Source: Klebsiella phage ST13-OXA48phi12.1. Taken from it: a DNA stretch of 39,086 nt. Below, piece by piece: positions 1 through 39,046 of this stretch; position 1 is the first letter of the stretch, and every line of letters begins with the position of its first letter. A program made the translations under genes and the position numbers. Under the pieces are notes generated by a model. It did no database searches and was not told where the DNA came from. It worked only from the letters and a program-made list of their open reading frames with translations. The stretch lies in sequence record MK422453.1; one strand, 5' to 3'.

Positions 1-1467
<1,467 letters not shown>

Positions 1468-1471
1468 TCTG

Positions 1472-1490
1472 TTGAGAGCGACGCTCTCAA
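1472..1490 (+). terminator. rpsU-dnaG intergenic hairpin (TTGAGAGCG-ACGCTCTCAA), partial terminator/attenuator-like
   Basis: Perfect 8-9 bp inverted repeat immediately after the rpsU stop. There is no strong U-tract. Its position matches the known partial terminator between rpsU and dnaG in E. coli. Confidence 0.4.
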
Positions 1491-1578
1491 TTCAGACCGA
1501 GTTGTAGTTGTAAGGCCGTGCTTCCGAAAGGAATGCGCGGCTTATTTTCGTTTATAGTCATCAGAAATAACGGGGCTT

Positions 1579-3324: not shown

Positions 3325-3338
3325 ATGACAGACAATAT

Positions 3339-3386
3339 CCTTCACGTTGTATCAAAGCAGTAAGAAAACGCAGAACAACGTGAAGG
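3339..3386 (+). promoter_or_regulatory. 11-bp perfect inverted repeat CCTTCACGTTG ... CAACGTGAAGG (25-nt spacer) in the dnaG-rpoD intergenic region
   Basis: Read directly from the sequence. It lies in the region that carries the RNA processing/antitermination elements and the rpoD heat-shock promoter in E. coli. Confidence 0.35.
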
Positions 3387-3542
3387 AAAAGTATTTAACG
3401 GCTTAAGTGCCGAGTATCGATCGGGAAGCCCCCGACAGCCGCGCAGAGGCGCAGCGGCAATAATATAAGTACGCCCTCGCTTTAAATGTCGACAGCCCGT
3501 CTGCCGACACCAATCAAACGAATTAAGTGTGGATACCGTCTT

Positions 3543-5384
3543 ATGGAGCAAAACCCGCAGTCACAGCTGAAGCTTCTTGTCCAACGTGGTAAGGAGCAAG
3601 GCTATCTGACCTATGCCGAGGTCAATGACCATCTGCCGGAAGATATCGTCGATTCCGATCAGATCGAAGACATCATCCAAATGATCAACGACATGGGTAT
3701 TCAGGTGATGGAAGAAGCACCGGATGCCGATGATCTGATGCTTGCCGAAAACACCGCGGATGAAGATGCTGCCGAAGCCGCCGCGCAGGTGCTCTCCAGC
3801 GTGGAATCCGAAATCGGGCGCACGACCGACCCGGTGCGTATGTACATGCGTGAAATGGGTACCGTAGAGCTGCTGACCCGTGAAGGCGAAATTGACATCG
3901 CCAAACGCATCGAAGACGGCATCAATCAGGTGCAGTGCTCCGTTGCCGAATATCCGGAAGCGATCACCTACCTGCTTGAGCAGTACGACCGCGTTGAAGC
4001 GGAAGAAGCCCGTCTGTCCGATCTGATCACCGGTTTCGTCGATCCGAACGCCGAAGAAGATATGGCGCCAACCGCCACCCACGTTGGCTCCGAGCTGTCT
4101 CAGGAAGAGATGGATGACGACGAAGACGAAGACGAAGATGAAGACGCCGACGACAACAGCGATGACGACAACAGCATCGACCCAGAGCTGGCCCGTGAGA
4201 AATTCGCCGAGCTGCGTACCCAGTACGAGCTGACGCGCGACACCATCAAAGCCAAAGGTCGTAGCCATGCCGCCGCCCAGGAAGAGATCCTGAAGCTGTC
4301 TGAAGTCTTCAAGCAGTTCCGCCTGGTGCCGAAGCAGTTCGATTACCTGGTCAACAGCATGCGCAGCATGATGGATCGCGTTCGTACTCAGGAACGTATC
4401 ATCATGAAGCTGTGCGTTGAGCAGTGCAAAATGCCGAAGAAAAACTTCATCACCCTGTTCACCGGCAACGAAACCAGCGAGACCTGGTTCAACGCCGCGG
4501 TGGCAATGAACAAGCCGTGGTCTGAGAAGCTGCTGGAAGTGAAAGAAGATGTGCAGCGCGGCCTGCAGAAGCTGCAGCAGATTGAAGAAGAGACCGGCCT
4601 GACCATCGAGCAGGTTAAAGATATCAACCGTCGCATGTCCATCGGCGAAGCGAAAGCCCGTCGTGCGAAGAAAGAGATGGTTGAAGCGAACCTGCGTCTG
4701 GTTATCTCTATCGCCAAGAAATACACCAACCGCGGTCTGCAGTTCCTCGACCTGATTCAGGAAGGCAACATCGGTCTGATGAAAGCGGTCGATAAGTTCG
4801 AATACCGTCGTGGCTACAAGTTCTCGACCTACGCCACCTGGTGGATCCGTCAGGCCATCACCCGCTCTATCGCGGATCAGGCGCGCACCATCCGTATTCC
4901 GGTGCATATGATTGAGACTATCAACAAGCTCAACCGTATCTCCCGTCAGATGCTGCAGGAGATGGGCCGTGAACCGACCCCGGAAGAGCTGGCTGAGCGT
5001 ATGCTGATGCCGGAAGACAAAATCCGTAAAGTGCTGAAGATCGCCAAAGAGCCTATCTCCATGGAAACGCCGATCGGCGACGATGAAGATTCGCATCTGG
5101 GGGATTTCATCGAGGATACCACCCTCGAGCTGCCGCTGGATTCTGCGACCACCGAGAGCCTGCGCGCGGCAACGCATGACGTGCTGGCCGGCCTCACCGC
5201 TCGTGAAGCGAAAGTGCTGCGTATGCGTTTCGGTATCGACATGAACACCGACCACACGCTGGAAGAAGTGGGTAAACAGTTCGACGTTACCCGCGAACGT
5301 ATCCGTCAGATCGAAGCGAAGGCGCTGCGTAAACTGCGCCACCCGAGCCGTTCTGAAGTGCTGCGTAGCTTCCTCGACGATTAA
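3543..5384 (+). CDS. rpoD: RNA polymerase sigma factor sigma70 (RpoD), 613 aa
   Basis: Start chosen at [13 protein letters not shown] (internal to six-frame ORF 3486..5384) to match the canonical RpoD N-terminus. It has the acidic region [19 protein letters not shown] and regions 2-4 ([43 protein letters not shown]...). Confidence 0.95.
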
Positions 5385-5413
5385 TCGTCGCGGGGCATCG
5401 TCTACAGCCTGTT

Positions 5414-5441
5414 AAAAAGCTCCCTGCGGGGAGCTTTTTTT
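5414..5441. terminator. bidirectional rho-independent terminator between convergent rpoD and mug (AAAAAGCTCCC-TGCG-GGGAGCTTTTTTT)
   Basis: GC-rich stem flanked by an A-tract on one side and a T-tract on the other, located between the rpoD stop (5384) and the mug stop (5484). Confidence 0.8.
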
Positions 5442-5483
5442 ATGGCGTTCAGGTGGCCATCCCGGGAAAGTCGCCTCTCTCCG

Positions 5484-5990
5484 CTACTGGCCGCGGGTTG
5501 CCAGGGCATCGTCCAGTTCACGATAGGCCGCCACCAGCTTATCGAGCGTCGCCCGGTTTAAGCCGCTGGGATTAGGCAGCACCCACACCTGGGTCGTCCC
5601 GATGGTCATAGCCTGTTTCCCCCACTTCGCGCCGCGCTGGTTAAAGGCCAGCTCGAAGGCCTGCTTGCCGAGCACCGCCAGCGCCTGCGGCTGATACTCC
5701 TCAATTTTACGTACCAGCTCACGGCCGCCGCTGCGTAACTCCTGCAAGGCGACCTCGCTGGCCTGCACCGTCGGACGCTCTACCAGCATGGTGATGCCGC
5801 AGCGCGTATCCAGCAGCTGCAGCTCCTCTTCCGGCCTGAGCTGCCGATCGGTGAACCCGGCCTGATGGATGACCTTCCAGAAGCGATTGCCAGGATGGGC
5901 AAAATGAAAGCCGGTATGGGCGGAGGACTTCCCCGGGTTGATACCGCAAAAGACAACGCGCAGGCCCGGCGCAAGGATATCGCTAATCAT
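5484..5990 (-). CDS. mug: G/U mismatch-specific DNA glycosylase (Mug), 168 aa
   Basis: [20 protein letters not shown]...NPSGLN matches the Mug/TDG family N- and C-terminal motifs. Its position between rpoD and ileX is as in E. coli. Confidence 0.9.
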
Positions 5991-6114: not shown

Positions 6115-6190
6115 GGCCCCTTAGCTCAGTGGTTAGAGCAGGCGACTCATAATCGCTTGGTCGTTGGTTCAAACCCAACAGGGGCCACCA
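6115..6190 (+). tRNA. ileX: tRNA-Ile2 (anticodon CAU, lysidine-modified; ileX-type), 76 nt with encoded CCA
   Basis: GGCCCCTTAGCTCAGTGGTTAGAGCAGGCGACTCATAATCGCTTGGTCGTTGGTTCAAACCCAACAGGGGCCACCA is near-identical to E. coli ileX. The differences are compensatory changes in the T-stem (GTTGG/CCAAC here versus GCTGG/CCAGC in E. coli). It serves as the prophage attachment site. Confidence 0.92.
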
Positions 6191-6317: not shown

Positions 6318-6695
6318 ATGAAAAAACCTCTTTTGGCCTTGCTACTTGTCGCATCTCAAAGTGCCTTCGCAGACAAAATCCCAGACTCTATTGAGAATCT
6401 CATTGCTGTTTACGATACAAGATCGCACAGCCTGGACAATGGCGAGCTAACCATTAAATACAGCAAACCAAAATTATTGATAGATGCCGCTGAATCACTT
6501 TTCAGCGGCATTTGCAATGATTACTTTATGAACAAATGGAAGCCAGAGACGATTAAAAAAATCACTCTGTTAAATGTTTCCCATGACCAAGGTTTTAGGA
6601 TTAATGGCGGTGGAGTTGAATGTAAAAAAACTGGCTCCATGGAAAACGAAAAGGCACGTTCTTACAGAACCAGTTTGATTGAACCTCTGCAATAA
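6318..6695 (+). CDS. small secreted (Sec signal peptide) hypothetical protein, 125 aa; prophage moron between attL and ogr
   Basis: MKKPLLALLLVASQSAFA|DK shows a signal peptidase I site. There are two Cys, and the gene is AT-rich relative to the flanks. It has its own SD (AAGGACAG) and is oriented opposite to the phage late genes. Confidence 0.65.
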   Translation: MKKPLLALLLVASQSAFADKIPDSIENLIAVYDTRSHSLDNGELTIKYSKPKLLIDAAESLFSGICNDYFMNKWKPETIKKITLLNVSHDQGFRINGGGVECKKTGSMENEKARSYRTSLIEPLQ

Positions 6696-6707: not shown

Positions 6708-6926
6708 TTAAAAGTTCATATGCCCCTGCCCGGCGGCAGTGGGGTGCGGCAGGGCATTATCAATAACTCCAGGTGTCATGATGTATCGCACTACGGTTTC
6801 ATGAGTGATGAAGGTGGTTCCGCAATTAATATTCTGGCACTGACAGTAACGCTCTTTTGTCTGATCCGTTACCCGAAAGCTACTCCGCGTATGCGCCGCG
6901 TGGCCGCACTTTGGACAATTCATCAT
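6708..6926 (-). CDS. ogr: Ogr/Delta-family zinc-finger late-gene transcription activator (P2 Ogr / 186 B), about 72 aa
   Basis: Start chosen at MMNCPKCGHAAHTRSSFRVTDQTKERYCQCQNINCGTTFITHETVVRYI (C-X2-C...C-X4-C zinc finger). A GGGAG SD lies 8 nt upstream. The upstream part of ORF 6708..6956 is judged to be leader. Confidence 0.85.
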   Translation of the reverse strand: MMNCPKCGHAAHTRSSFRVTDQTKERYCQCQNINCGTTFITHETVVRYIMTPGVIDNALPHPTAAGQGHMNF

Positions 6927-6996
6927 TACATTTATCTCCCGCCCTGCACATTTCAATCACATAATGATACATACAACTTCCATTTTGTGAAGCTCA

Positions 6997-25799: not shown

Positions 25800-25884
25800 C
25801 GGTCCGGCTCCGGTTAGTTAGTTCGTAACACGTTCAGAGCCTTATGTTTGCGGTGATAGGCGCGTGTAAACAACGCGTTGGGCT

Positions 25885-25902
25885 TGTGCGAACTCCCACA
25901 CA
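25885..25902. promoter_or_regulatory. Ogr-type late promoter element TGT-N12-ACA (TGTGCGAACTCCCACACA) in the divergent O/P intergenic region
   Basis: Dyad centred about 94 bp upstream of the O start codon (25799), compatible with a -55 site for leftward PO. The P ATG is 55 bp to the right, so a second, unrecognised site may serve PP. Confidence 0.5.
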
Positions 25903-25948
25903 ATGCGAAGCCGGGGAAAGTGCTGATTTGAGGCCGTATGTTTGTGCC

Positions 25949-27712
25949 ATGACAACACTGACCCCCGCAGACCTCGATCCCCGTCGTCAGGCAATGCTGA
26001 TGTACTTTCAGGGATACCGCGTAGCCCGCATTGCTGAAATGCTGGGCGAGAAAGTTGCAACCGTTCACAGCTGGAAAAAACGCGATAAGTGGGGCGAATA
26101 TGGCCCACTGGATCAGATGCAGCTCACCACCGCCGCACGTTACTGCCAGCTCGTCATGAAGGAGCAGAAGGAAGGAAAGGATTTTAAAGAAATTGACCTG
26201 CTGGCGCGTCAGTCCGAACGACAGGCCAGGATCGGCAAATTTAACAATGGCGGTAATGAAGCAGACCTGAACCCCAACGTGGCCAACCGCAATAAAGGCC
26301 CGCGCAAACCGCCGGAAAAAAACCTGTTTACCGACGAACAAATCGAAAAGCTGGAAGAGATTTTCCGCGCCGGTATGTTCGAGTACCAGCGCCACTGGTG
26401 GGACGCTGGTATCAAACACCGTATCCGCAACCTCTTAAAGTCACGCCAGATCGGTGCAACCTACTATTTCGCCCGTGAAGCGTTAATAGACGCCCTGACC
26501 ACGGGGCGAAATCAAATCTTTCTGTCAGCGAGTAAAGCGCAGGCGCACGTTTTTAAACAGTACATCATCGACTTCGCAAAAGAGGTGGACGTTGAGCTGA
26601 AAGGCGATCCGATGGTGCTGCCTAACGGCGCGTGTCTTTACTTCCTCGGTACAAATGCCCGTACCGCGCAGAGCTACCACGGCAACCTGTATCTTGATGA
26701 GTATTTCTGGATACCGAAATTCCAGGAGCTGCGCAAGGTGGCCTCCGGTATGGCGCTGCACAAAAAATGGCGTCAGACCTATTTCTCTACACCTTCAAGC
26801 TTGACGCACAGCGCCTACCCGTTCTGGTCTGGTGCCCTGTTCAATAAAGGGCGCCCGAAAGCCGACAGGGTAGAATTTGACCTTTCTCACAGTAGCCTAG
26901 AGCACGGCGTTTTGTGCCCTGACGGCCAGTACCGCCAGATAGTCACCATTGAGGATGCCGTAAACGGCGGGTGTAACCTTTTCGACCTGGACCAGCTGCG
27001 CCTGGAGTACAGCCCGGACGAATACAACAACCTGCTGATGTGTCAGTTTGTTGACGACCTGGCGTCCGTGTTCCCGCTGGCGTTGCTGCAGTCCTGCATG
27101 GTTGACAGCTGGGACGTGTGGGACGATTTCGAACCGCTTTTACTGCGTCCGTTTGCATACCACCCTGTCTGGATCGGCTATGACCCGGCAAAAGGAACGC
27201 AGAACGGTGACAGCGCCGGTTGCGTGGTCATTGCGCCTCCCGTCGTCCCCGGCGGTAAATTCCGCATCCTTGAGCGTCACCAGTGGCGCGGGATGGACTT
27301 TCGCGCCCAGGCCTCAGCGATTGAGGAAATCACCAGACGCTACAACGTGACCTACATCGGCATTGATTCGACCGGCGTTGGCGATGGCGTTTACAAAACG
27401 GTTAAGCAGTTCTTCCCTGCCGCGCGTGAGTTTGTCTACAACCCGACCGTTAAAAATGCCCTAGTGCTTAAAGCCTACGACATCATCAGCGGGCGCCGTC
27501 TGGAGTTTGACGCGGGGATGCTGGATATCGCGCAGTCCTTTATGTCCATTCGACGTTCAACCACCGCCAGCGGCAACCGGCCAACCTACGAAGCAGCCCG
27601 CACAGAGGAAGCCAGCCACGCGGATTTAGCCTGGGCAACCATGCACGCACTTTATAACGAACCACTGGCAGGAGCTTCCGCCAGTACCAGCAACATCGTG
27701 GAGATTTTTTAA
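25949..27712 (+). CDS. P: terminase ATPase (large) subunit gpP-like, about 587 aa
   Basis: Start chosen at MTTLTPADLDPRRQAMLMYFQGYRVARIAEMLGEKVATVHSWKKRD, which matches the P2 P N-terminus. A Walker-type ATPase and nuclease domains follow. The upstream part of ORF 25844..27712 is excluded. Confidence 0.9.
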   Translation: MTTLTPADLDPRRQAMLMYFQGYRVARIAEMLGEKVATVHSWKKRDKWGEYGPLDQMQLTTAARYCQLVMKEQKEGKDFKEIDLLARQSERQARIGKFNNGGNEADLNPNVANRNKGPRKPPEKNLFTDEQIEKLEEIFRAGMFEYQRHWWDAGIKHRIRNLLKSRQIGATYYFAREALIDALTTGRNQIFLSASKAQAHVFKQYIIDFAKEVDVELKGDPMVLPNGACLYFLGTNARTAQSYHGNLYLDEYFWIPKFQELRKVASGMALHKKWRQTYFSTPSSLTHSAYPFWSGALFNKGRPKADRVEFDLSHSSLEHGVLCPDGQYRQIVTIEDAVNGGCNLFDLDQLRLEYSPDEYNNLLMCQFVDDLASVFPLALLQSCMVDSWDVWDDFEPLLLRPFAYHPVWIGYDPAKGTQNGDSAGCVVIAPPVVPGGKFRILERHQWRGMDFRAQASAIEEITRRYNVTYIGIDSTGVGDGVYKTVKQFFPAAREFVYNPTVKNALVLKAYDIISGRRLEFDAGMLDIAQSFMSIRRSTTASGNRPTYEAARTEEASHADLAWATMHALYNEPLAGASASTSNIVEIF

Positions 27713-28761
27713 TGGCTAACCGCAAAAACCGCAGCAAGGCACCGCGCGGCCAGACCGCCACCGATACGGCCAACATGGTCAGTAATGCACATGCGGAGGC
27801 GTTTACGTTTGGCGATCCGATCCCCGTGATGGACCGCCGGGAGTTATTTGATTACCTGGAGTGCGTGCAGGTAGACCGCTGGTACGAACCACCGATCAGC
27901 ATGGATGGCCTAGCGCGAACTTACCGCGCCGCCGTGCATCACTCCAGCGCTATTCAGGTAAAACGCAATATTCTTACCAGTACCTTCATCCCTCACCGCT
28001 GGCTGTCTAAACAAGCCTTTTCCCGGTTCGCCCAGGACTTTCTGGTATTCGGTAATGCCTACCTTGAAAAACGCATGAACCTGTTAGGGCAGATCATGGA
28101 GCTGCGCGCCTCGCTTGCCAAATATACCCGTCGTGGCATTGACCCGGACACCTACTGGTTTGCACAGTATGGCTACAACTCACAGCCCTATCAGTTCGAT
28201 GAGGGAAGCGTGTTTCACCTGATGGAACCCGACGTTAACCAGGAGCTTTACGGGATGCCGGAATATCTCTCCGCCATTCCCTCCGCCCTGCTGAATGAAT
28301 CGGCCACCCTGTTTCGCCGTAAGTATTACCTTAACGGTAGCCATGCTGGTTTCATCATGTACATGAGCGACCCCGCCGCCGATCAGGAAGACGTGAACAA
28401 CATACGCGAAGCACTTAAAAAATCGAAAGGGCCAGGCAACTTCCGCAACCTGTTTATGTACAGCCCGAACGGCAAGAAAGACGGTATTCAGATCATCCCA
28501 CTGTCAGAAGTCGCAGCGAAAGATGAGTTTCTTAACATCAAGAATGTGAGCCGTGATGACATGCTGGCAGCTCACCGCGTGCCGCCGCAGCTGATGGGGA
28601 TTATTCCAACAAATACTGGCGGGTTCGGTGATGTTGAAAAAGCGGCGCGCGTTTTCGTACGCAACGAGCTGACACCGCTGCAGTGCCGCATCACTGAAGT
28701 TAACGAGTGGCTGGGTGACGAAGTTATACGCTTTAACCCATACCTGACCGATGAAGACTGA
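27712..28761 (+). CDS. Q: portal protein gpQ-like, 349 aa
   Basis: TAATG overlap with P. It is the last structural gene before the convergent terminators, and its size matches P2 Q. Confidence 0.9.
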   Translation: MANRKNRSKAPRGQTATDTANMVSNAHAEAFTFGDPIPVMDRRELFDYLECVQVDRWYEPPISMDGLARTYRAAVHHSSAIQVKRNILTSTFIPHRWLSKQAFSRFAQDFLVFGNAYLEKRMNLLGQIMELRASLAKYTRRGIDPDTYWFAQYGYNSQPYQFDEGSVFHLMEPDVNQELYGMPEYLSAIPSALLNESATLFRRKYYLNGSHAGFIMYMSDPAADQEDVNNIREALKKSKGPGNFRNLFMYSPNGKKDGIQIIPLSEVAAKDEFLNIKNVSRDDMLAAHRVPPQLMGIIPTNTGGFGDVEKAARVFVRNELTPLQCRITEVNEWLGDEVIRFNPYLTDED

Positions 28762-28787
28762 CGCGCAGCTTGTCAACCTTTGATAAC

Positions 28788-28812
28788 AACCGCCCTTCTC
28801 CGGGCGGTTTTT
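28788..28812 (+). terminator. rho-independent terminator of the P-Q transcript (CCGCCC-TTCTCC-GGGCGG + TTTTT)
   Basis: GC stem plus T5 located 27 nt after the Q stop. Confidence 0.8.
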
Positions 28813-28863
28813 GATTGCCCCCCTAAACCACCTCCCCAAAAGGTTGTTTAGGGGGGCAATCAA
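28811..28863. terminator. 18-bp perfect inverted repeat (TTGATTGCCCCCCTAAAC ... GTTTAGGGGGGCAATCAA, 17-nt loop) between convergent Q and the ATPase/TOPRIM cassette
   Basis: Read directly. It is a very stable hairpin immediately downstream of the minus-strand gene ending at 28871. It lacks a clean U-tract on the minus strand, so it may act as a terminator or as a cos-region/packaging-associated structure. Confidence 0.55.
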
Positions 28864-28870
28864 AACGCTC

Positions 28871-29590
28871 TTAAGATCGTTTCTGTTTACGATTCGACTC
28901 TATTTGTTTTTTAAGCTGGATAAGTCTTTCAACCAACTCAAAAACTTTTGTACTTGGATTATCAGTATCGCTAGCTTCAGCTGCCTGTAAACTTCTCTTA
29001 GCCCTCAGGACTACTTCATTTAAATCTTTTGAATCTAGAGCATTAAGGGTTTTATGAAAAATCCCTTTTGCGCCTTTCTCATAGTTCTTAATATATTTTT
29101 TTAACTCACTGACAATTTGATTTCCCGAACTGTTACCCGGTAAATTTCTAAATGCCTTTGTCGAATAGGTATAATGAAGAAGTAACCAATACTCAAAACA
29201 AGGTACTGAATTAACAGTAAACCAACTTGAACTTGGTTTACTTCTCCTGAGAGCATCGAGTGCTGCCACATAGTCAGTGTGGGCATCCTTATCAATCACT
29301 ACAAAGATTTGATCATAAGGAGCCCCCTTTTCAGTCATTTCTTTATGTTTTTCTTTTGCATGACGAACAACACACATTGGACTAGAGCCACACTCACCAG
29401 TTACATCAATTACACTAGCTGTAAGTAATTCATAATGGTTAATCAAATCCTCAAAATAGTTTGGTTCAGTTTTCTTACCCTCACAAACAATTAATATTTT
29501 AGCGAGAGGGGATTTAACTGCATTACGTCTTGCCAGATCCTTAGCAGTTTTAGGACCACGTTTCTTTTTAAATAAATCCTCGCTTCCCAT
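28871..29590 (-). CDS. TOPRIM-like nuclease partner (RloB/DUF4435-like; OLD-family C-terminal-domain analogue), 239 aa
   Basis: ILIVCEGKKTEPNYF (conserved Glu) and IFVVIDKDAHTD (DxD) fit a TOPRIM catalytic pair. The N-terminus is basic. The start codon overlaps the ATPase stop (translational coupling), and the gene is low in GC. Confidence 0.6.
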   Translation of the reverse strand: MGSEDLFKKKRGPKTAKDLARRNAVKSPLAKILIVCEGKKTEPNYFEDLINHYELLTASVIDVTGECGSSPMCVVRHAKEKHKEMTEKGAPYDQIFVVIDKDAHTDYVAALDALRRSKPSSSWFTVNSVPCFEYWLLLHYTYSTKAFRNLPGNSSGNQIVSELKKYIKNYEKGAKGIFHKTLNALDSKDLNEVVLRAKRSLQAAEASDTDNPSTKVFELVERLIQLKKQIESNRKQKRS

Positions 29591-29591
29591 A

Positions 29592-30857
29592 TCAAATCCC
29601 CGTCAATTTCTTGATGAACGGCAATGCTCCATATCTACCGTCTAGGTATGCGGCTTCTAGATTTTCCCTTCCCTTTCTTGGGCTAAAATCAGTCAATGGA
29701 TATAGATTGGTTTCACTGAGTTCATTTTTCTCACAAAACCAGACTTGATCGCGTCTAAAAATGCTTTGATTCAGAATGGATGTCTCATGCGTTGAGAAAA
29801 TTAACTGAGCACCTTTTTTATTAGTATCAGGACTATTAAAAAGATTTACCAAAAAACTAACCAGCTTTGGATGCAATGTATCGTGAAGCTCATCGATAAA
29901 TAGTACATATCCATTATCGAGGGCGTCCAGCCATGGACCAGCTAAAGAAAAAAGTTTTTGAGTGCCATGAGACTCTTCCTCAAGAGAAAAACTAACCGGC
30001 TCCCCTTTATCGTTATAATGCACGGTAGTAACATCAAAGATATCTTTATCCTTCATGTTAGAAATAACGATTTTTTTGATATCATCTGGCATATCAGAGG
30101 GCAAATCGTCTGGATTAAATTTTTCTTTTGTAACTAAAACATCATCAATGCCAATGTCTGCAGCTTTCAAGAAATTCAAGATATCTTTCTTCGTATCCTC
30201 AGTGCAGCGTTTGGCGGAGAATGTATTGGCCCATCCTTTAATACCAGAAAGTCTCAGTGTTTTTTTAAACCAAGTAAATACAGGCTTAAGCTGCTCACTA
30301 TTTAATTGGACAGCTGTAGATAAGAACAAGGCATTATTTCTAGTTGAGCGCTGCCAAACTTGTTTTTCACCAAGCAGTGATGCGCCAAAATCCCACTCAT
30401 ATTCCTGTTTCTCTTCATCCCAAGCTCTGAAATACCACTTTTGAGGTCTTCCTTTTGGGTACGCAAAGAGCCATTCATCAATAATTCTTTCATTTGTAGC
30501 AGAAAAACCAAACTGATACCGAATGCCCTCTGCAATAAAAGTAACTTCAAATTCAGTAGGATTTTTAATTGAATCTGAATCAAGCTTGAAAGGGAATACA
30601 GGAACCTCTTCGCCAGCCTGAGTATTAGATGCAGATTGAGTAACGATATCCATCATAGCTCTGACAGCGAGAAGCACATTCGATTTTCCCGCTGCGTTAG
30701 CACCGTAAATAACAGCTGACTTGAGAACATTAAGGTTAACGTTTCCTTCAACTGTAAAGATATTCTCTTCTAACTCATTACTTTTGTTAGCAATAAGTGA
30801 AAATGTTTGTTTGTTTTTGATTGAGAGATAGTTCTCAACATTGAATTCAATAAGCAT
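29592..30857 (-). CDS. ABC-type AAA_15/AAA_21 ATPase of an OLD/AbiL/PARIS-like two-gene module, 421 aa
   Basis: Walker A GANAAGKSN, a long inserted region, signature-like ESHGTQKLFSLAG, Walker B VLFIDELHDTLHP and H-loop IFSTHE. A strong SD AGGAGGGG precedes the start. The gene is AT-rich compared with the surrounding phage genes. Confidence 0.7.
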   Translation of the reverse strand: MLIEFNVENYLSIKNKQTFSLIANKSNELEENIFTVEGNVNLNVLKSAVIYGANAAGKSNVLLAVRAMMDIVTQSASNTQAGEEVPVFPFKLDSDSIKNPTEFEVTFIAEGIRYQFGFSATNERIIDEWLFAYPKGRPQKWYFRAWDEEKQEYEWDFGASLLGEKQVWQRSTRNNALFLSTAVQLNSEQLKPVFTWFKKTLRLSGIKGWANTFSAKRCTEDTKKDILNFLKAADIGIDDVLVTKEKFNPDDLPSDMPDDIKKIVISNMKDKDIFDVTTVHYNDKGEPVSFSLEEESHGTQKLFSLAGPWLDALDNGYVLFIDELHDTLHPKLVSFLVNLFNSPDTNKKGAQLIFSTHETSILNQSIFRRDQVWFCEKNELSETNLYPLTDFSPRKGRENLEAAYLDGRYGALPFIKKLTGI

Positions 30858-31034
30858 TTTTCCCCTCCTGGTGGTTGAATAATCTTAGTTGCAAAAGCAA
30901 CAAACGTCACCAACAACCAAATCTTAGGACACTTTATGACAAAAAACGTCAAAATGGTACTCATAAAACGGTTCAACGCCCATTTTAAGACTTAATCACC
31001 TTTGCTTTCAGCTAGCTTTGCGCCCTGAACGCGC

Positions 31035-31054
31035 GCTCGTATCCCCGCCACGCC
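31035..31054 (-). other. candidate cos site (minus-strand GGCGTGGCGGGGATACGAGC, matching 13/13 of the first bases of the 186/P2 19-nt cohesive end GGCGTGGCGGGGAAAGCAT)
   Basis: The only P2/186 cos-like string I found in the window. It lies in a 330-bp non-coding gap, at the place in the gene order where cos is expected (between the Q side and the A side). Confidence 0.4.
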
Positions 31055-31096
31055 TGCCCGCTTTGTGTAGTGGTTTTCATGCACCTGCATGAGATA

Positions 31097-31123
31097 TGAA
31101 AAAGCCCGCCAGAACTGGCGGGC
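31097..31123 (-). terminator. rho-independent terminator after orf85 (minus strand GCCCGCCAG-TTCT-CTGGCGGGC + TTTTTCAT)
   Basis: GC stem plus T-run on the minus strand, 70 nt downstream of the orf85 stop. Confidence 0.75.
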
Positions 31124-31189
31124 CGGAGCTAAAACGATCCTCAAACGATCATGCAGATTCATGCGGCATAGTCATGCACTCGCTTTTTT

Positions 31190-31447
31190 TCAGGTTAGCC
31201 TGAAATCCTCGTCAAAATCCATAAAGTTTTCAGCTACTCGCGATGAAAGGATGATGTACTTAATCCCCTCATCCAAGGGAACTGGGCGATCAAGTTCAAG
31301 CATAAAAACACCATCATAGGTTTTACCCAGCCAGAACCCGCCGCCGCAGGATTTTGGCCGCTGAAAAAGCACCCAGCCACCCTGAACAAATTTCGTTAGT
31401 GGCTCATAGCGATAAACGACCTGATAATTGCTGTCTTTAGACCCCAT
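31190..31447 (-). CDS. hypothetical protein, 85 aa (cos-proximal cargo; function unknown)
   Basis: MGSKDSNYQVVYRYEPLTKFVQGGWVLFQRPKSCGGGFWLGKTYDGVFMLELDRPVPLDEG... with a GAGG-type SD. It has its own terminator. No family was recognised. Confidence 0.55.
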   Translation of the reverse strand: MGSKDSNYQVVYRYEPLTKFVQGGWVLFQRPKSCGGGFWLGKTYDGVFMLELDRPVPLDEGIKYIILSSRVAENFMDFDEDFRLT

Positions 31448-31475: not shown

Positions 31476-31524
31476 CAACGTTGCAGGCGGTAAAAACCAG
31501 TTTTATCGCCTGCAACGTTTTGTT
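31476..31524 (+). terminator. 13-bp perfect stem (AACGTTGCAGGCG ... CGCCTGCAACGTT) followed by TTTTGTT; plus-strand-oriented terminator/insulator between the dinI-like gene and orf85
   Basis: Read directly. The T-tract is present only on the plus strand. On the minus strand it directly follows the dinI-like stop, so it may also act as a processing or stability element. Confidence 0.5.
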
Positions 31525-31756
31525 AATGCAGCCAGCTGTCGTCTTCCCAGACCTGCTGCATAATTTCCATTACCCGCTGCTTATCCTCATCAAGTTTTAA
31601 GCCGGTCAACTCGATACCGTTGGCACTGCCTTTGCGAATGCGGATCGCCGTCTTGGGATATAAAGGGATCAGGTTGCGGTAAAGCTCGGTTTCGAGTGCT
31701 TCCAGTGTCGCCTGGCTAATTTTCTGCTCTTTATCAATCATTATTTCGACACGCAT
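31523..31756 (-). CDS. dinI: DinI-family protein (DNA-damage-inducible protein I-like), about 77 aa
   Basis: Start at MRVEIMIDKEQKISQATLEALETELYRNLIPLYPKTAIRIRKGSANGIELTGLKLDEDKQRVMEIMQQVWEDDSWL, which aligns with E. coli DinI (MRIEVTIAK...SVRYAAANNLSVIG...KQRISEILQETWESADDWF). The upstream part of ORF 31523..31804 is excluded. Confidence 0.8.
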   Translation of the reverse strand: MRVEIMIDKEQKISQATLEALETELYRNLIPLYPKTAIRIRKGSANGIELTGLKLDEDKQRVMEIMQQVWEDDSWLH

Positions 31757-31769
31757 GGAGATCATCCCC

Positions 31770-31958
31770 CTAACTGGAAACATCCATTGACCGGGTGTAT
31801 TCATGGCTACGAATTTTCGCCATTAATTCATCAGTCAGCTCAGAAACCCACTGGATAGCAAGTCGCTTCTCTTCATCGCTGCACTCACTAGCCGCTACAA
31901 GCTTGATAAAAAAATCAATACGCTGGAGTTTTAACGACTCCAAAAGATAGTCCTGCAT
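31770..31958 (-). CDS. small hypothetical protein, 62 aa, first gene of the SOS-box-controlled moron operon
   Basis: Start chosen at MQDYLLESLKLQRIDFF... because a strong SD (GGAGGGG) sits immediately upstream. The first ATG of ORF 31770..32048 lies inside the LexA-box/promoter region. Confidence 0.5.
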   Translation of the reverse strand: MQDYLLESLKLQRIDFFIKLVAASECSDEEKRLAIQWVSELTDELMAKIRSHEYTRSMDVSS

Positions 31959-32016
31959 TTCCCCTCCTATCCTCACTACGGGATATCCGTTGCCATATAC
32001 CCTCAAAGGGATATTG

Positions 32017-32054
32017 CCATACTGTATATACATCCACTGGATATCCATACAGTA
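32017..32054 (-). promoter_or_regulatory. tandem LexA (SOS) boxes overlapping the promoter of the orf62-dinI-like operon
   Basis: The minus strand reads TACTGTATGGATATCCAGTG (CTG-N10-CAG; compare consensus TACTGTATATATATACAGTA), followed by GATGTATATACAGTATGG carrying a perfect TATATACAGTA half-site. The region is AT-rich and promoter-like (TTTACA ... TATACT), directly upstream of the SD-marked start. Confidence 0.6.
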
Positions 32055-32141: not shown

Positions 32142-34586
32142 TCATCGGTACCACTGGCGCCATTTATCATCTTCCTGCAGCCTTTGGTTCCGGTAAAAGA
32201 CACGCAGACCGGCACCGGATGGAATACTGCCACCGCGCAGAAGCAGATCGATCTCCGCCTCCGAACCATCAAAGCCTCTCGATTTAAGTTCATACTCCAG
32301 CTGCAGGCGCTGCTGATTATCCACATCCTGCCTGTATCCTTTCCGGCGCTTAGGCTTAACCATGCGAAGCCGTGCGTTTAGCTCCCTCAGCTCCTTTTTG
32401 CTCATGCTATGGAGATACTCCTGCAGCTCCCGCTCATCCATACCCGCAATATCCGTTAAATCCTGTCCGCTTACGGCCCCGTTTTCGTTCATTTTTTCCA
32501 CAGGGGGACAGTTATTGCCACGAGTCCAAGGGGCGCAAGCGCCCTGGTCGGCTGGCGCCTCCTGAACGTCAACGGCCTTACGAACCATTTTCCACTTCAT
32601 CGCATGCGTGCAAATCCGGCCCTCAATAATCGGGGACCAAATGCCATAAATACGGATGCTGTGATCGCCATAGGCTGATGGCTCGTCATTGAGTTCATAA
32701 GCCGTGCGGACCAGGTGATGTTTACGCGGAACCAGTACGCCGCCCTGTTTCATGATGTAGGTGGCAAAACACCCGGCATCGGCTGCCGCCAGCACGGCAT
32801 CCAGACGCGGGTTATCCAGTACCGGCGCACCTGCTTTTTTATCGGCCTGCTGTCGCGCGGCCTGGCCCGCCAGCAAACGCAGCTCGCGATAAGCCTGGCG
32901 GCCCGGTATACCGAAAAAGCGGAATTGCTGGACGCGATGCAGCGAAGCCCAGGCATTGACATGTTCGGCATTGTCCCGCAGTGATCTGCCGGTTTCTTTG
33001 CTGATTTCGTTAGCCAGGCCACGCCCGTCGATGTTCTTACTGATGTACTTCGCGATGTAGCTGGTCGGCGTACCCTTGCGCGGGTTGATCAGCTCAGACT
33101 TAAAACGCGGGCCGGTATTGTTGCCCAGCTCCTCGCGGTCCTCACGGATGGCAAATTTACGCAGCAGCGCAGTGATGGACTTGCGGTCTTTTTTGCGCAT
33201 GAAGCAAAGCAGGTGCCAGTGCACGGTGCCGTCATGGTGTGGCTCAGCAACGCGGACGCCATACCAGCGCAGCCCGGCTTTGTGCATCGCCTTGCGGAAA
33301 GCGGCGAACGTATGCACCAGATAGTCGCTGCTCTGCCGGACCGTTGCACTGGTCCATTTCGGGTTTGGCCTGCCGTTATTGAGCGTTGCGTGAAAGCGTG
33401 ACGGGCAGGTGATGGTATAGAACACCGCGCAGTCTCCGCGCATTTCCGCGATTAACTCCAGCCCCTTAACACAGGCCATCATTTCATTACGACGGTGCGC
33501 CGGATTGCTGCTACTGGCGTTTACCACGTCTTCCATATCCAGCGTATCGCCCTGCTCATTGGTCAGCTCATGCGAGCGGAAGAACTCCAGCGATTTGCGG
33601 CGCTGTTCGCGTTTATGGATCACGGCCTCATAGCTGACATACGGGGACGCCTTTTTGTTAACCAGGCAGACGGCGCGCAGCTGTTCTTCCCGCCATTCAC
33701 ACCGCATCTGCCACAGCTTGCGATACCACCAGTCAGCACAGAGCATACGGGCAAGCGAACCCGGAATAAGTTCGTATTGTACCGGGTTACGGCGGTGCTT
33801 TTTGCGGCGCAGCTTCTCGAAGGCAGGCGGGAGAACATCAAGGCGCATGGCCTCAGCGGCCACCCTTTCCCATGACCGGCGGATCTCTTCTGGCGTAACG
33901 TCTTCATCCGTAAACAGCTCACCGCAGGCAGCATCCAGACACATGCTCATGTGTGCCGCCACCAGTGTTGATAAACGCTTAACCTGCTCCTGGTTCATTT
34001 CCGGCAGAACCAGCAGGCCCTCCAGCCCGTCGTGGCTCGCCATAAACCGGAATGACGCAGAAACCTGGCTGGCGCGCACGCGCTCCAGGCGATCAAGGCA
34101 CGGCCTGATGGTTTCACGCAGGTAGCGAGAATAGGCTTTTGCTCTGCCCAGACTATGGAAATATTTAATCCGCTCCAGCAGAGGCTTGCTGATATGGGAC
34201 GGCATGGCGTTAACATCAGCCAGAATAACCAGATCGGGATTAAAACGCTGCTGCTCGCGCGCCATTTTGGCATGGCTAATCAGCCGGTCCTGCTCCATTT
34301 CACGCTGGACAGGATCACGGGATTCATTGAAGAAATAGCGTTCCCAGACCTCATCGCTCATCGCCTCACGCCGCAGTTGCTCCTGCTCGTTGTCGCTGGC
34401 GTAGAGAGCGATCAGGTTTGAAAGCGCAGATACCGGCGCAACTTCCGCCGGGTCCGTGTATGGGTTAACCGCTTTTTTCGGGGTATTCCAGACAAAAGCA
34501 GCGGCGGCATCATCTGCGCCGCCGTAGTTTTTAACGTCGTGATGGCTCACACAAATACTCTCTTTGGAAAGTTTCGTAAGACGCAC
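32142..34586 (-). CDS. A: rolling-circle replication initiation endonuclease gpA (P2 A / 186 RepA family), 814 aa
   Basis: N-terminus [15 protein letters not shown] resembles the P2 A N-terminus. HWHLL motif and the active-site tyrosine motif YIAKYISKN (phiX174-gpA superfamily) are present. The 5' end overlaps the dam 3' end by about 56 nt, so the exact start is uncertain. Confidence 0.88.
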
Positions 34587-37960: not shown

Positions 37961-39046
37961 ATGGCTGTTTCAAAACTACCTAACGGAAAGTGGCAGGCTC
38001 AGGTTTTCCCAAACGGTAGGGATGGAAAGCGCATCCGTCGCCAGTTCGCGACCAAAGGGGAGGCTTTAGCATTTGAGCGCCACATAAAAGATCAGGCTCA
38101 AGATAAGCCGTGGCTGGGCGAGAAAACTGATAAACGCCGCGTTCGGGATTTGGTTACAGCTTGGTATAACGCACATGGCGTTACGCTTGCTGATGGTGAA
38201 AAGCGTAAAGGCGCAATGGAGTTTGCCTGTCTCGCAATGGGCGATCCCCTCGCTACAGAATTCAACGCTAAACTGTTCTCAACTTATAGAGAACAGCGAC
38301 TAAGCGGAAAAATAACCCGCTCTGATCGCGTTAAGGCTGTCACCCCTCGCACGGTTAACCTTGAACTAGCTTACTTTCGGGCTATGTTCAACGAGCTGAA
38401 AAGACTTGATGACTGGACAGCACCCAACCCTCTTGAAAACGTCAGAGAGTTTAAGATCGCAGAAATTGAGCTGGCCTGGCTTACAGTTGAGGAAGCGGCT
38501 CGCTTGCTGGAAGAATGTGAAAAAAGCAAGGCGGAGGATTTAACCATGATTGTTAAAATCTGCCTTGCAACCGGAGCAAGATGGGGTGAGGCGGAAAGTT
38601 TAACTGGAAAGCAGATAAGCCCCGGAAAAATCACTTTTATCAAAACGAAAGGTAAGAAGAACCGAGCTGTTCCTATCAGTGACGAGCTTTATGAATTACT
38701 ACCCAAAAGCCGAACCTCTAAACCGCTCTTTACCGGATGTTACTCAGCATTCAGGAGCGCAGTAAAACGGGCGGGAATTGAACTTCCTGACGGTCAGCTT
38801 TCGCATGTTTTACGGCATACTTTTGCCAGCCATTTCATGATGGGCGGCGGCAATATTCTAGTTTTACAACGCATCCTCGGGCATACAGATATCAAAGTCA
38901 CGATGCGTTATGCTCACTTCGCCCCTGACCACCTTACAGAAGCGGTTCAACTTAACCCATTAAACCTGATAAGTGGCAGCAAAATGGCAGCACAGCGCAG
39001 CACTATGCAATACTTTTCGACAATATACGAAATGCTATGCGTTTGA
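37961..39046 (+). CDS. int: tyrosine integrase (P2/186 Int family), 361 aa
   Basis: MAVSKLPNGKWQAQVFPNGRDGKRIRRQFATKGEALAFE... aligns with P2 Int (MAIKKLDDGRYEVDIRPTGRNGKRIRRKF...). The catalytic R...HxxR...Y (HVLRHTFASHF ... RYAHF) is present. Confidence 0.92.
   Translation: MAVSKLPNGKWQAQVFPNGRDGKRIRRQFATKGEALAFERHIKDQAQDKPWLGEKTDKRRVRDLVTAWYNAHGVTLADGEKRKGAMEFACLAMGDPLATEFNAKLFSTYREQRLSGKITRSDRVKAVTPRTVNLELAYFRAMFNELKRLDDWTAPNPLENVREFKIAEIELAWLTVEEAARLLEECEKSKAEDLTMIVKICLATGARWGEAESLTGKQISPGKITFIKTKGKKNRAVPISDELYELLPKSRTSKPLFTGCYSAFRSAVKRAGIELPDGQLSHVLRHTFASHFMMGGGNILVLQRILGHTDIKVTMRYAHFAPDHLTEAVQLNPLNLISGSKMAAQRSTMQYFSTIYEMLCV

What the first reader, a model, noticed from the sequence alone, without database searches (positions are those of the whole stretch)
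28871..30857. Split OLD-family module (ABC ATPase + TOPRIM/RloB-like) inserted between cos and the portal gene: candidate anti-phage defence cargo
Two translationally coupled, low-GC genes sit where P2 has essentially nothing, between cos and Q. They are transcribed convergently with Q and P and are insulated from them by a pair of strong hairpins. The first protein has an ABC/AAA_21-type ATPase (GANAAGKSN, SHGTQ, LFIDELHD, STHE). The second is a 239-aa protein with a TOPRIM-like Glu...DxD signature (ILIVCEGKKTEPNYF ... VVIDKDAHTD). This equals P2 Old split into two polypeptides, the architecture of the AbiL (AbiLi/AbiLii) and PARIS (AriA/AriB) abortive-infection systems. Those systems are known to occupy variable hotspots of P2-like prophages and P4 satellites. 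The 239-aa partner is shorter than typical AriB/AbiLii proteins and I cannot assign it to either family by eye, so it may be a divergent or new variant.
Basis: partly seen in the sequence, partly recalled or inferred. Interest (0 to 1): 0.8.

Follow-up and report, generated by a model that had tools for sequence, protein, structure and literature searches.

The report
AbiL-type defence gene pair in prophage
A P2/186-like prophage carries, right next to its DNA-packaging site, a two-gene cassette (an ABC-type ATPase plus an RloB nuclease-like protein) of the known AbiL/RloAB anti-phage family; it is an ordinary new member of a known kind, sitting in a hotspot that has already been described.

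Summary
Two intact, adjacent, low-GC genes (421 aa and 239 aa, minus strand) lie between the cos site (31036-31054) and the portal gene. They converge on the portal gene and are followed by two strong hairpins.

The pair matches the AbiL models of PADLOC (AbiLi 1.4e-101, AbiLii 1.6e-29) and Pfam AAA_21 plus a full-length RloB match. It is not PARIS: there is no AriB/DUF4435 hit. It is not a recognisable split of P2 Old either. At 239 aa the RloB protein is typical of its family (221-255 aa), not short or divergent.

Identical proteins occur in roughly 98%-identical public prophage copies, the ATPase under a Klebsiella pneumoniae name. A 60%-identical pair fills the same cos-to-portal slot in Serratia P2-like prophages. 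Other relatives lie beside BREX, beside type I restriction genes, in other prophage types and on small plasmids. The gpA-gpQ hotspot is published, and AAA_21 + RloB arrangements in it are listed in Rousset et al. 2022.

The likely mechanism is inferred, not shown: the ATPase senses infection and restrains the nuclease, and release causes abortive infection. Trigger and target are unknown. Novelty: new member of a known kind. Interest is low to moderate.

The parts
29592..30857 (-). abiLi / rloA-like gene: 421-aa ABC-type (Rad50/SMC-like) ATPase. Motifs: Walker A G52-K58-S59; signature S296-H-G-T-Q300; Walker B D322-E323; H-loop H357. The C-terminal tail (387-413) is strongly conserved.
28871..29590 (-). 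abiLii / rloB gene: 239-aa RloB-family protein, the putative TOPRIM-like nuclease effector. Conserved residues are E37 (CEGxKTEP), D100-x-D102-x-H104, S128/P130/E133/W135/H139 and N211-P212. The basic N-terminal tail (residues 1-31) is modelled with low confidence.
30858..31029 (-). 172-bp leader of the cassette. It has a Shine-Dalgarno GGAGG at 30864-30868, 6 nt before the ATG. Only weak sigma-70-like candidates are present: CTGAAA-18-TAAAAT at 31011-30982, and by eye GTGACG-17-TAAGAT at 30910-30882.
   Evidence: Sequence and consensus scan. No promoter has been shown. The stretch belongs to the variable cargo and is not conserved with Klebsiella phage ST15-OXA48phi14.1.
28811..28863 (.). Long perfect inverted repeat: a 19-bp stem with an inner 4-6 bp extension, immediately after the rloB stop codon.
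   Evidence: Folding at -61.2 kcal/mol with z -7.5 and -8.5. There is no U-tract on the minus strand. The left arm is deleted in the ETEC4091 copy, so it is not essential to the module.
28788..28809 (.). 8-bp GC-rich hairpin after the portal gene. It occupies the same position as tQ in P2. It is terminator-like on the + strand and could also stop the converging cassette transcript.
   Evidence: Terminator scan and folding. It is conserved in ETEC4091 and L005.
28762..31029 (.). The whole variable cargo slot between the portal stop codon and the conserved cos block.
   Evidence: Similarity to Klebsiella phage ST15-OXA48phi14.1 ends at 28734 and resumes at 31030. That phage has a SEFIR-domain gene in the slot. 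GC is 0.38.
31036..31054 (-). cos cohesive-end equivalent (GGCGTGGCGGGGATACGAG). This is context only and marks the boundary of the slot.
   Evidence: Alignment to the P2 end junction. The same motif and flank occur in L001, L002 and L005, and a related motif in the Serratia prophages L015/L016. The conserved block 31030-31180 is shared with 39 phage records and 1247 E. coli records.

Best explanation
This is a self-contained two-gene AbiL-type (RloA/RloB family) anti-phage cassette. A 186/P2-like prophage, probably of Klebsiella, carries it as foreign low-GC cargo in the cos-proximal gpA-gpQ hotspot, on the portal side of cos.

**Proposed mechanism.** The cassette is expressed from the lysogen. 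The ABC ATPase (Rad50/SMC-like head) binds the RloB TOPRIM-like nuclease and keeps it inactive. When a competing phage infects, the ATPase senses a phage product or a replication or DNA state. ATP-dependent remodelling then releases or activates RloB. RloB cuts a host nucleic acid (tRNA by analogy with AriB and P2 Old, DNA as the alternative) and arrests the cell before the invader completes its cycle.

**Shown here.**
- Both genes are intact and under purifying selection.
- Both belong to the stated families.
- The ATPase motifs and the acidic E...DxD...E residues are conserved.
- The pair is conserved as a unit across unrelated mobile contexts.

**Inferred only.** Expression in the lysogen, complex formation, the trigger, the substrate and the abortive outcome.

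**Confidence.** About 0.9 that it is an AbiL/RloAB-type cassette. About 0.6 that it works by the ATPase-gated nuclease mechanism described. The single figure given is a blend of the two.
For: - **Family.** PADLOC AbiLi 1.4e-101 and AbiLii 1.6e-29. Pfam AAA_21 (133 bits) and RloB (full length, 122.9 bits).
- **ATPase fold.** Rad50/SMC, retron ATPase, PtuA and AriA head-like. Walker A, signature, Walker B and H-loop residues are invariant.
- **Selection.** dN/dS is 0.05 and 0.11.
- **Mobility as a unit.** The pair is always adjacent and co-oriented:
  - in the same cos-to-portal slot of Serratia P2-like prophages, at 60% identity;
  - in a siphoviral prophage tail region in Providencia;
  - next to a lambdoid integrase and a type I R-M system in Enterobacter;
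  - next to BREX in Methylomarinum;
  - on small ColE1-type plasmids, one of them annotated abiLI.
- **The slot.** It is variable and holds a SEFIR-domain gene in a related Klebsiella phage.
- **Literature.**
  - The gpA-gpQ region is a defence hotspot (PMC9122126; PMC13586616).
  - AbiL is grouped with ABC ATPase + TOPRIM systems (PMC11464382; PMC13064643).
  - RloB is related to OLD_TOPRIM by HHpred, and AAA proteins neutralise TOPRIM_OLD toxins (PMC10440598).
  - The paper on AriB is titled and abstracted around tRNA cleavage by the AriB Toprim nuclease, and the 2026 preprint calls P2 OLD an abortive tRNase in its title (the preprint text was read only in part).
Against: - There are no functional data for this pair or for any close relative. 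The lactococcal AbiL prototype could not be compared directly.
- No convincing promoter was found.
- The ATPase model is only moderate: pLDDT 71.6, with the conserved C-terminus below 50.
- The tRNA target is pure analogy. For lactococcal AbiL, the review's table (citing Deng et al. 1999) lists the stage affected only as 'after transcription' in Ceduovirus infection, with escape route and cause of death marked unknown.
Confidence: 0.72

Rival explanations
1. It is a PARIS (AriA/AriB) system that senses anti-restriction proteins such as Ocr and cleaves tRNA-Lys.
Confidence: 0.03
2. It is mainly a toxin-antitoxin addiction module (ATPase as antitoxin, RloB as toxin) that stabilises the prophage or the cargo itself, with no meaningful anti-phage role.
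For: NetFlax validated AAA-neutralised TOPRIM_OLD toxins as TA pairs (PMC10440598). Related pairs are common on very small mobilizable plasmids, where addiction would be useful. The gene junction is tight.
Against: The pair sits in recognised defence contexts: the P2 hotspot, beside BREX and beside type I R-M. The named lactococcal AbiL gives phage resistance. TA behaviour and abortive defence are not exclusive, as PARIS shows.
Confidence: 0.12
3. It is a restriction-linked accessory (the RloA/RloB of type I R-M loci) that needs an hsd partner to work, and is inert on its own in this prophage.
For: A 61%-identical Neisseria homologue is named RloA. One Enterobacter copy lies next to HsdM/HsdS genes. 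The RloB family was first seen in type I R-M operons.
Against: No hsd genes are in the window. Most contexts examined lack R-M genes. The only methylase in the prophage is a Dam-type D12 enzyme typical of 186-like early operons. Strong purifying selection acts on the prophage-borne copies.
Confidence: 0.05
4. It serves the phage's own life cycle, for example processing near cos, replication, or control of P4-like satellites, rather than defending the host.
For: It lies within 6 bp of the cos cohesive-end sequence and next to the packaging genes. ABC ATPase/nuclease pairs such as SbcCD act on DNA ends.
Against: The slot is variable. It is nearly empty in P2 and holds an unrelated SEFIR-domain gene in a close relative. 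The cassette is compositionally foreign. The same pair occurs in non-P2 contexts with no cos site. No deposited P2-like phage genome carries it.
Confidence: 0.04

Closest known systems
AbiL (AbiLi/AbiLii) of Lactococcus lactis, as modelled in PADLOC/DefenseFinder; Pfam RloB (PF13707) plus AAA_21 (PF13304)
   Same: Two adjacent co-oriented genes, an ABC/AAA_21 ATPase followed by an RloB-family protein. Both PADLOC AbiL models are hit strongly, and the Pfam RloB model is covered end to end. The family is carried on mobile elements.
   Different: The host is a Gram-negative enterobacterium, and the carrier is a P2/186-like prophage rather than a lactococcal plasmid. The prototype sequences could not be fetched, so identity to them is unknown. 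tblastn of PLSDB listed no lactococcal match among the rows shown. No phenotype is known for this clade.
RloA/RloB 'restriction-linked ORFs' of Campylobacter and Neisseria type I R-M loci
   Same: The protein families are the same. The ATPase is 61% identical to a Neisseria wadsworthii protein named RloA. An Enterobacter homologue pair lies beside hsdM/hsdS.
   Different: No R-M genes are linked here, and the pair stands alone in a prophage cargo slot.
PARIS (AriA/AriB)
   Same: An ABC ATPase sensor plus a separate small nuclease effector. It is found in P2/P4 cos-proximal hotspots and has toxin-antitoxin-like logic.
   Different: The PARIS effector family is DUF4435, not RloB, and there is no AriB hit. 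The published HHpred link between AriB and RloB is only remote (90.6% probability, E 0.53). The trigger (Ocr) and target (tRNA-Lys) are known for PARIS and unknown here.
P2 Old (class 1 OLD nuclease) at the P2 old/tin locus
   Same: The same general hotspot next to cos in a P2-like phage, and the same ABC ATPase plus nuclease logic. The ATPase signature/Walker B/H-loop stretch is alignable (E 9e-5).
   Different: Old is a single 586-aa polypeptide on the other (gpA) side of cos. The RloB profile shows no detectable similarity to the Old TOPRIM region. This pair is therefore not a recent split of Old.
Defence hotspot between gpA and gpQ of P2-like phages (Rousset et al. 2022; PMC13586616, 2026)
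   Same: The location is exactly this hotspot. Table S5 of Rousset et al. lists 'AAA_21 + RloB' arrangements and a catalogue entry 'AAA_15/AAA_21/SMC_N | RloB' with a count of 37.
   Different: The catalogued entry whose sequence I could read (no. 90) is a different, divergent pair with a 172-aa RloB. No RloB system appears in their table of tested systems (0 occurrences in Table S2).

Membership tests
AbiL (PADLOC/DefenseFinder definition: AbiLi + AbiLii) | A protein matching the AbiLi ATPase model | tested here: met
   PDLC02335 AbiLi, E 1.4e-101, 337.8 bits, residues 1-418.
AbiL (PADLOC/DefenseFinder definition: AbiLi + AbiLii) | A protein matching the AbiLii model / Pfam RloB | tested here: met
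   PDLC02337 AbiLii, E 1.6e-29. PF13707 RloB, E 2.4e-35, profile positions 1-195 of 195, 122.9 bits against a cut-off of 31.5.
AbiL (PADLOC/DefenseFinder definition: AbiLi + AbiLii) | The two genes are adjacent and co-oriented, ATPase first | tested here: met
   One base lies between the stop and start codons, on the same strand. The same arrangement is seen in all homologous loci examined.
AbiL (PADLOC/DefenseFinder definition: AbiLi + AbiLii) | Direct sequence relationship to the Lactococcus lactis prototype proteins | not tested
No Lactococcus record appeared among the listed tblastn hits in PLSDB.
AbiL (PADLOC/DefenseFinder definition: AbiLi + AbiLii) | Confers abortive phage resistance that depends on both genes | not testable with these tools
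   This needs plaque and toxicity assays.
ABC ATPase + TOPRIM ('OLD-like') defence systems | ABC-type ATPase with Walker A, signature, Walker B and H-loop motifs and a Rad50/SMC-like head fold | tested here: met
ABC ATPase + TOPRIM ('OLD-like') defence systems | The effector has a TOPRIM fold with a catalytic Glu and a DxD motif | tested here: inconclusive
PARIS (AriA/AriB) | The partner protein belongs to DUF4435 (AriB) | tested here: not met
   No DUF4435 or AriB hit at E<=0.1 in Pfam or PADLOC.
PARIS (AriA/AriB) | AAA_15/AAA_21 ATPase encoded next to the effector | tested here: met
   AAA_21 at 133 bits and AAA_15 at 34.6 bits. This feature is shared by many systems, so it does not discriminate.
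Class 1 OLD (P2 Old) | A single polypeptide with an N-terminal ATPase and a C-terminal TOPRIM domain | tested here: not met
   Two separate ORFs. The RloB profile does not align with Old.
MADS (MAD3/MAD4) | The ATPase reaches the NCBIfam MAD3 equivalog cut-off | tested here: not met
   28.2 bits against a cut-off of 420.
P2-like gpA-gpQ defence hotspot cargo | Located between the replication gene A and the portal gene Q, next to cos, in a variable region | tested here: met
   gpA at 32142..34586, cos at 31036-31054, portal at 27712..28761. The slot content differs between related phages. The hotspot definition comes from PMC9122126.

The most novel reading that the evidence does not exclude
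The most novel reading not excluded is that this highly conserved RloA/RloB clade does not work like PARIS or OLD.

- Its ATPase stays 58-62% identical from Enterobacteria to Neisseria, Nitrosomonas and Methylomarinum.
- My own fold and profile tests do not recognise the effector as TOPRIM.
- The effector has its own invariant set: C36, H104, E133, W135, H139 and N211-P212.
- The two most conserved segments that are modelled with low confidence are the basic N-terminal tail of RloB and the C-terminal PLTDFSPRKGRENLEAAYLDGRYGALP tail of the ATPase. They could form a new gating interface or sense a new class of trigger.

If so, this prophage copy would be a convenient entry point to a widespread defence family whose mechanism is unknown.
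Probability: 0.12. Interest if true: 0.6.

Novelty: new member of a known kind. Interest (0 to 1): 0.25.

Why it matters
The finding adds one more documented case of a P2/186-like prophage using the slot directly beside cos to carry interchangeable defence cargo. AbiL-type pairs have entered this exact cos-to-portal sub-slot in at least two enterobacterial lineages: the Klebsiella/E. coli copies, and Serratia at 60% identity.

The family is large and widespread, yet its trigger, substrate and structure remain unknown. A compact, natively expressed prophage copy from a clinically relevant host would be a reasonable experimental model. The finding itself reveals no new kind of system. Existing HMMs label it automatically, the hotspot is published, and identical proteins are already in public databases.

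Tried and rejected
- **Exact P2 cos 19-mer, up to 3 mismatches:** 0 matches. cos was then located by aligning the P2 end junction.
- **PARIS:** rejected because there is no AriB/DUF4435 hit.
- **'Split Old':** hhalign of the RloB alignment against P2 Old is negative. The ATPase matches Old only locally.
- **Profile searches of PDB sequences with both alignments:** nothing meaningful.
- **tblastn of RloB against deposited phage genomes:** only two distant metagenomic records, and no P2-like phage.
- **Megablast against 5,426 complete E. coli genomes:** only one genome holds the cassette.
- **Direct comparison with lactococcal AbiLi/AbiLii:** not possible, because no sequences were reachable and no Lactococcus record appeared among the rows listed from PLSDB.
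- **Context look-ups for two Neisseria homologues:** not on record.
- **Supplements of the 2026 NAR paper:** not held.
- **Rfam scan:** no RNA family in or near the cassette, only a tRNA at 6115-6187.
- **MADS:** rejected.
- **Third protein-database search, representative-library search and metagenome/genome scans:** deliberately not used, because their results could not have changed the verdict.
Full report
**What is in the sequence**

The two ORFs exist exactly as described. One runs 29592..30857 on the minus strand (421 aa) and the other 28871..29590 on the minus strand (239 aa).

The TGA stop of the first gene is separated from the ATG of the second by one base. A GGAGG Shine-Dalgarno sequence lies 6 nt upstream of the first ATG. 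The cassette has GC 0.38, against 0.556 for the neighbouring structural genes.

Two hairpins lie downstream, between the second gene and the converging portal gene. One is an 8-bp GC-rich stem at 28788-28809, terminator-like on the + strand. The other is a 19-bp perfect stem at about 28811-28863. The region folds far better than shuffled sequence, with z-scores of -7.5 and -8.5. The left arm of the long hairpin is missing in the E. coli ETEC4091 copy of the cassette, so it is not an obligatory part of the module.

**Genomic setting**

- Bases 1-5990 of the window are chromosomal: tsaD, dnaG, rpoD and a mug-type glycosylase gene.
- A tRNA with anticodon CAT lies at 6115-6190.
- The rest is a 186/P2-like prophage. 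Its genes include:
  - an Ogr-like zinc-finger ORF at 6708..6956 (identified by eye), gpD and the tail genes;
  - terminase at 25844..27712 and portal at 27712..28761;
  - gpA at 32142..34586, a Dam-type methylase, CII, a CI repressor and an integrase at 37961..39046.
- The ATPase is 100% identical to a protein recorded from Klebsiella pneumoniae.
- Both proteins are encoded identically in roughly 98%-identical prophages in several public assemblies.

**Where cos is**

The exact P2 cos 19-mer is absent. Aligning the joined P2 ends to the window places the cos equivalent at 31036-31054 on the minus strand, GGCGTGGCGGGGATACGAG. The P2-like conserved flank lies on the gpA side.

Comparison with Klebsiella phage ST15-OXA48phi14.1 shows similarity up to 28734 and again from 31030. 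The variable slot is therefore 28762-31029, and it begins only 6 bp from the cohesive-end sequence. That phage carries a SEFIR-domain gene in the slot.

In P2 the same interval is about 167 bp and holds only the tQ terminator. P2 old and tin lie on the other side of cos.

The gpA-gpQ region as a whole is the published defence hotspot of P2-like phages (PMC9122126; PMC13586616).

**What the proteins are**

*The 421-aa protein*
- It matches Pfam AAA_21 (3.1e-38) and AAA_15, and PADLOC AbiLi at 1.4e-101.
- Walker A (G52, K58), the signature (S296, G298, T299), Walker B (D322, E323) and the H-loop (H357) are invariant across 40 homologues.

*The 239-aa protein*
- It matches Pfam RloB over the entire model (2.4e-35) and PADLOC AbiLii at 1.6e-29.
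- Apart from one 161-aa partial match, its listed homologues are 217-255 aa, so its length is typical.
- The invariant residues are E37 in CEGxKTEP, D100-x-D102-x-H104, the group S128/P130/F132/E133/W135/H139, and N211-P212.
- The AF2 model has pLDDT 87. Its beta-alpha-beta core puts E37 and the DxD motif at strand ends, as a TOPRIM fold would.

**How firm the TOPRIM and OLD link is**

- Foldseek finds nothing significant.
- hhalign of the RloB alignment against P2 Old is negative.
- Pfam gives no Toprim hit.
- The ATPase aligns with Old only across the signature/Walker B/H-loop stretch, at E 9e-5.

**Not PARIS**

The partner protein has no DUF4435 or AriB hit. The stronger PADLOC AriA hit spans the same residues (48-363) and the same 304-position profile as Pfam AAA_21, so it reflects a generic model. 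The MADS MAD3 model scores far below its cut-off.

**Evidence that the pair is a functional, mobile unit**

dN/dS against the 91-93% identical ETEC4091 copy is 0.05 for the ATPase and 0.11 for RloB. The same ATPase-then-RloB pair was found in these contexts:

| Host or carrier | Context |
|---|---|
| Serratia P2-like prophages | Same cos-to-portal slot, ATPase 60% identical |
| Providencia siphoviral prophage | Upstream of the tape-measure gene |
| Enterobacter | Next to a lambdoid integrase; in one strain also beside hsdM/hsdS |
| Methylomarinum | Beside a BREX system |
| Small ColE1-type plasmids of Klebsiella and E. coli | About 33% identity; one copy annotated abiLI |

This spread is typical of a stand-alone defence or toxin-antitoxin cassette.

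**How it most likely works**

Analogy with the ABC ATPase + nuclease systems whose mechanism is known suggests the following sequence.

1. The ATPase holds RloB inactive.
2. A cue from an infecting phage causes ATP-dependent release or activation of RloB.
3. RloB cleaves tRNA, or alternatively DNA, and this aborts the infection.

The analogies are PARIS (PMC11464382), the AAA-neutralised TOPRIM_OLD toxins (PMC10440598) and P2 OLD, which a 2026 preprint calls an abortive tRNase in its title.

Only the anatomy is shown here. Expression, complex formation, trigger and target are all inferred. For lactococcal AbiL itself, the review's table lists the stage affected as 'after transcription' in Ceduovirus infection and marks the escape route and cause of death as unknown. 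It says further work is needed to learn whether AbiL works like PARIS (PMC13064643).

**Rival readings**

Each of these is given a low probability in the rivals list:
- a pure addiction module;
- a restriction-linked accessory that needs hsd genes;
- a function in the phage's own life cycle;
- PARIS.

**Novelty**

- Existing HMMs label the pair as AbiL.
- PGAP already names the E. coli copy 'AAA family ATPase' and 'RloB family protein'.
- PHROGs holds families for both proteins, of unknown function.
- Table S5 of Rousset et al. 2022 lists AAA_21 + RloB arrangements in this hotspot, though none appears in their table of tested systems.
- The cassette is rare in E. coli, in 1 of 5,426 complete genomes, and absent from deposited P2-like phage genomes.

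It is a new, uncharacterised member of a known kind in a known place. The remaining interest is that the mechanism of the whole AbiL/RloAB family is still open.

Noticed in passing
window 6318-6695 (+): A low-GC (about 0.43) 125-aa ORF with a clear N-terminal signal peptide (MKKPLLALLLVASQSAFA). It lies at the prophage end, between the tRNA and the Ogr-like gene. It has no Pfam hit and matches phrog_3807 (unknown function, 1.1e-33). It may be a second piece of cargo or a lysogenic-conversion gene.
   Followed up: partly
window 6115-6190 (+): A tRNA with anticodon CAT lies directly after the mug-type glycosylase gene and before the prophage Ogr/gpD end. It is the probable integration site of the prophage. 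The other prophage end, beyond the integrase at 39046, is cut off by the window.
   Followed up: no
L002 3494-4927 (Klebsiella phage ST15-OXA48phi14.1): The same cos-to-portal slot holds a gene annotated as a SEFIR-domain protein, with its own perfect hairpin between it and the portal gene. The annotated 'hypothetical protein' at 4924-5133 overlaps the cos motif at 5014-5025.
   Followed up: partly
L015 and L016 6798-10035 (Serratia P2-like prophages): A 60%-identical AAA_21 + RloB pair occupies the same sub-slot between a cos-like motif and the portal gene. AbiL-type cargo has therefore entered, or persisted in, this slot in separate phage lineages. A KAP_NTPase gene lies next to the CI repressor gene at the edge of each locus, where the integrase lies in the window.
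   Followed up: partly
window 29592-30857 (-), residues 359-411 of the ATPase; window 28871-29590 (-), residues 1-31 of RloB: Two of the most conserved segments are modelled with low confidence. One is the ATPase C-terminal tail PLTDFSPRKGRENLEAAYLDGRYGALP. The other is the basic N-terminal tail of RloB, with invariant R11 and R21. They may fold only in the complex or on a ligand.
   Followed up: no
window 31190-31447 (-), 31523-31804 (-), 31770-32048 (-): On the gpA side of cos, where P2 has old and tin, this prophage has only small genes: an 85-aa ORF (phrog_2100, unknown function), a DinI-like protein and a 92-aa ORF (phrog_698). No recognisable defence gene is present there.
   Followed up: partly
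plasmid records such as AP022428.1, NZ_CP045021.1 and NZ_AP027646.1: Very small (3.5-6 kb) mobilizable plasmids of Klebsiella, E. coli, Enterobacter and Salmonella consist largely of a distantly related (about 33% identity) ATPase + RloB pair. AbiL-type cargo therefore makes up much of the coding capacity of these plasmids.
   Followed up: no
window 25844-27712 (+): The longest terminase ORF (622 aa) begins 35 codons upstream of the 587-aa start called in two of the near-identical public copies (L006 and L007). The longer form overlaps the divergent scaffold-gene promoter region, so the true start is probably the shorter one.
   Followed up: no
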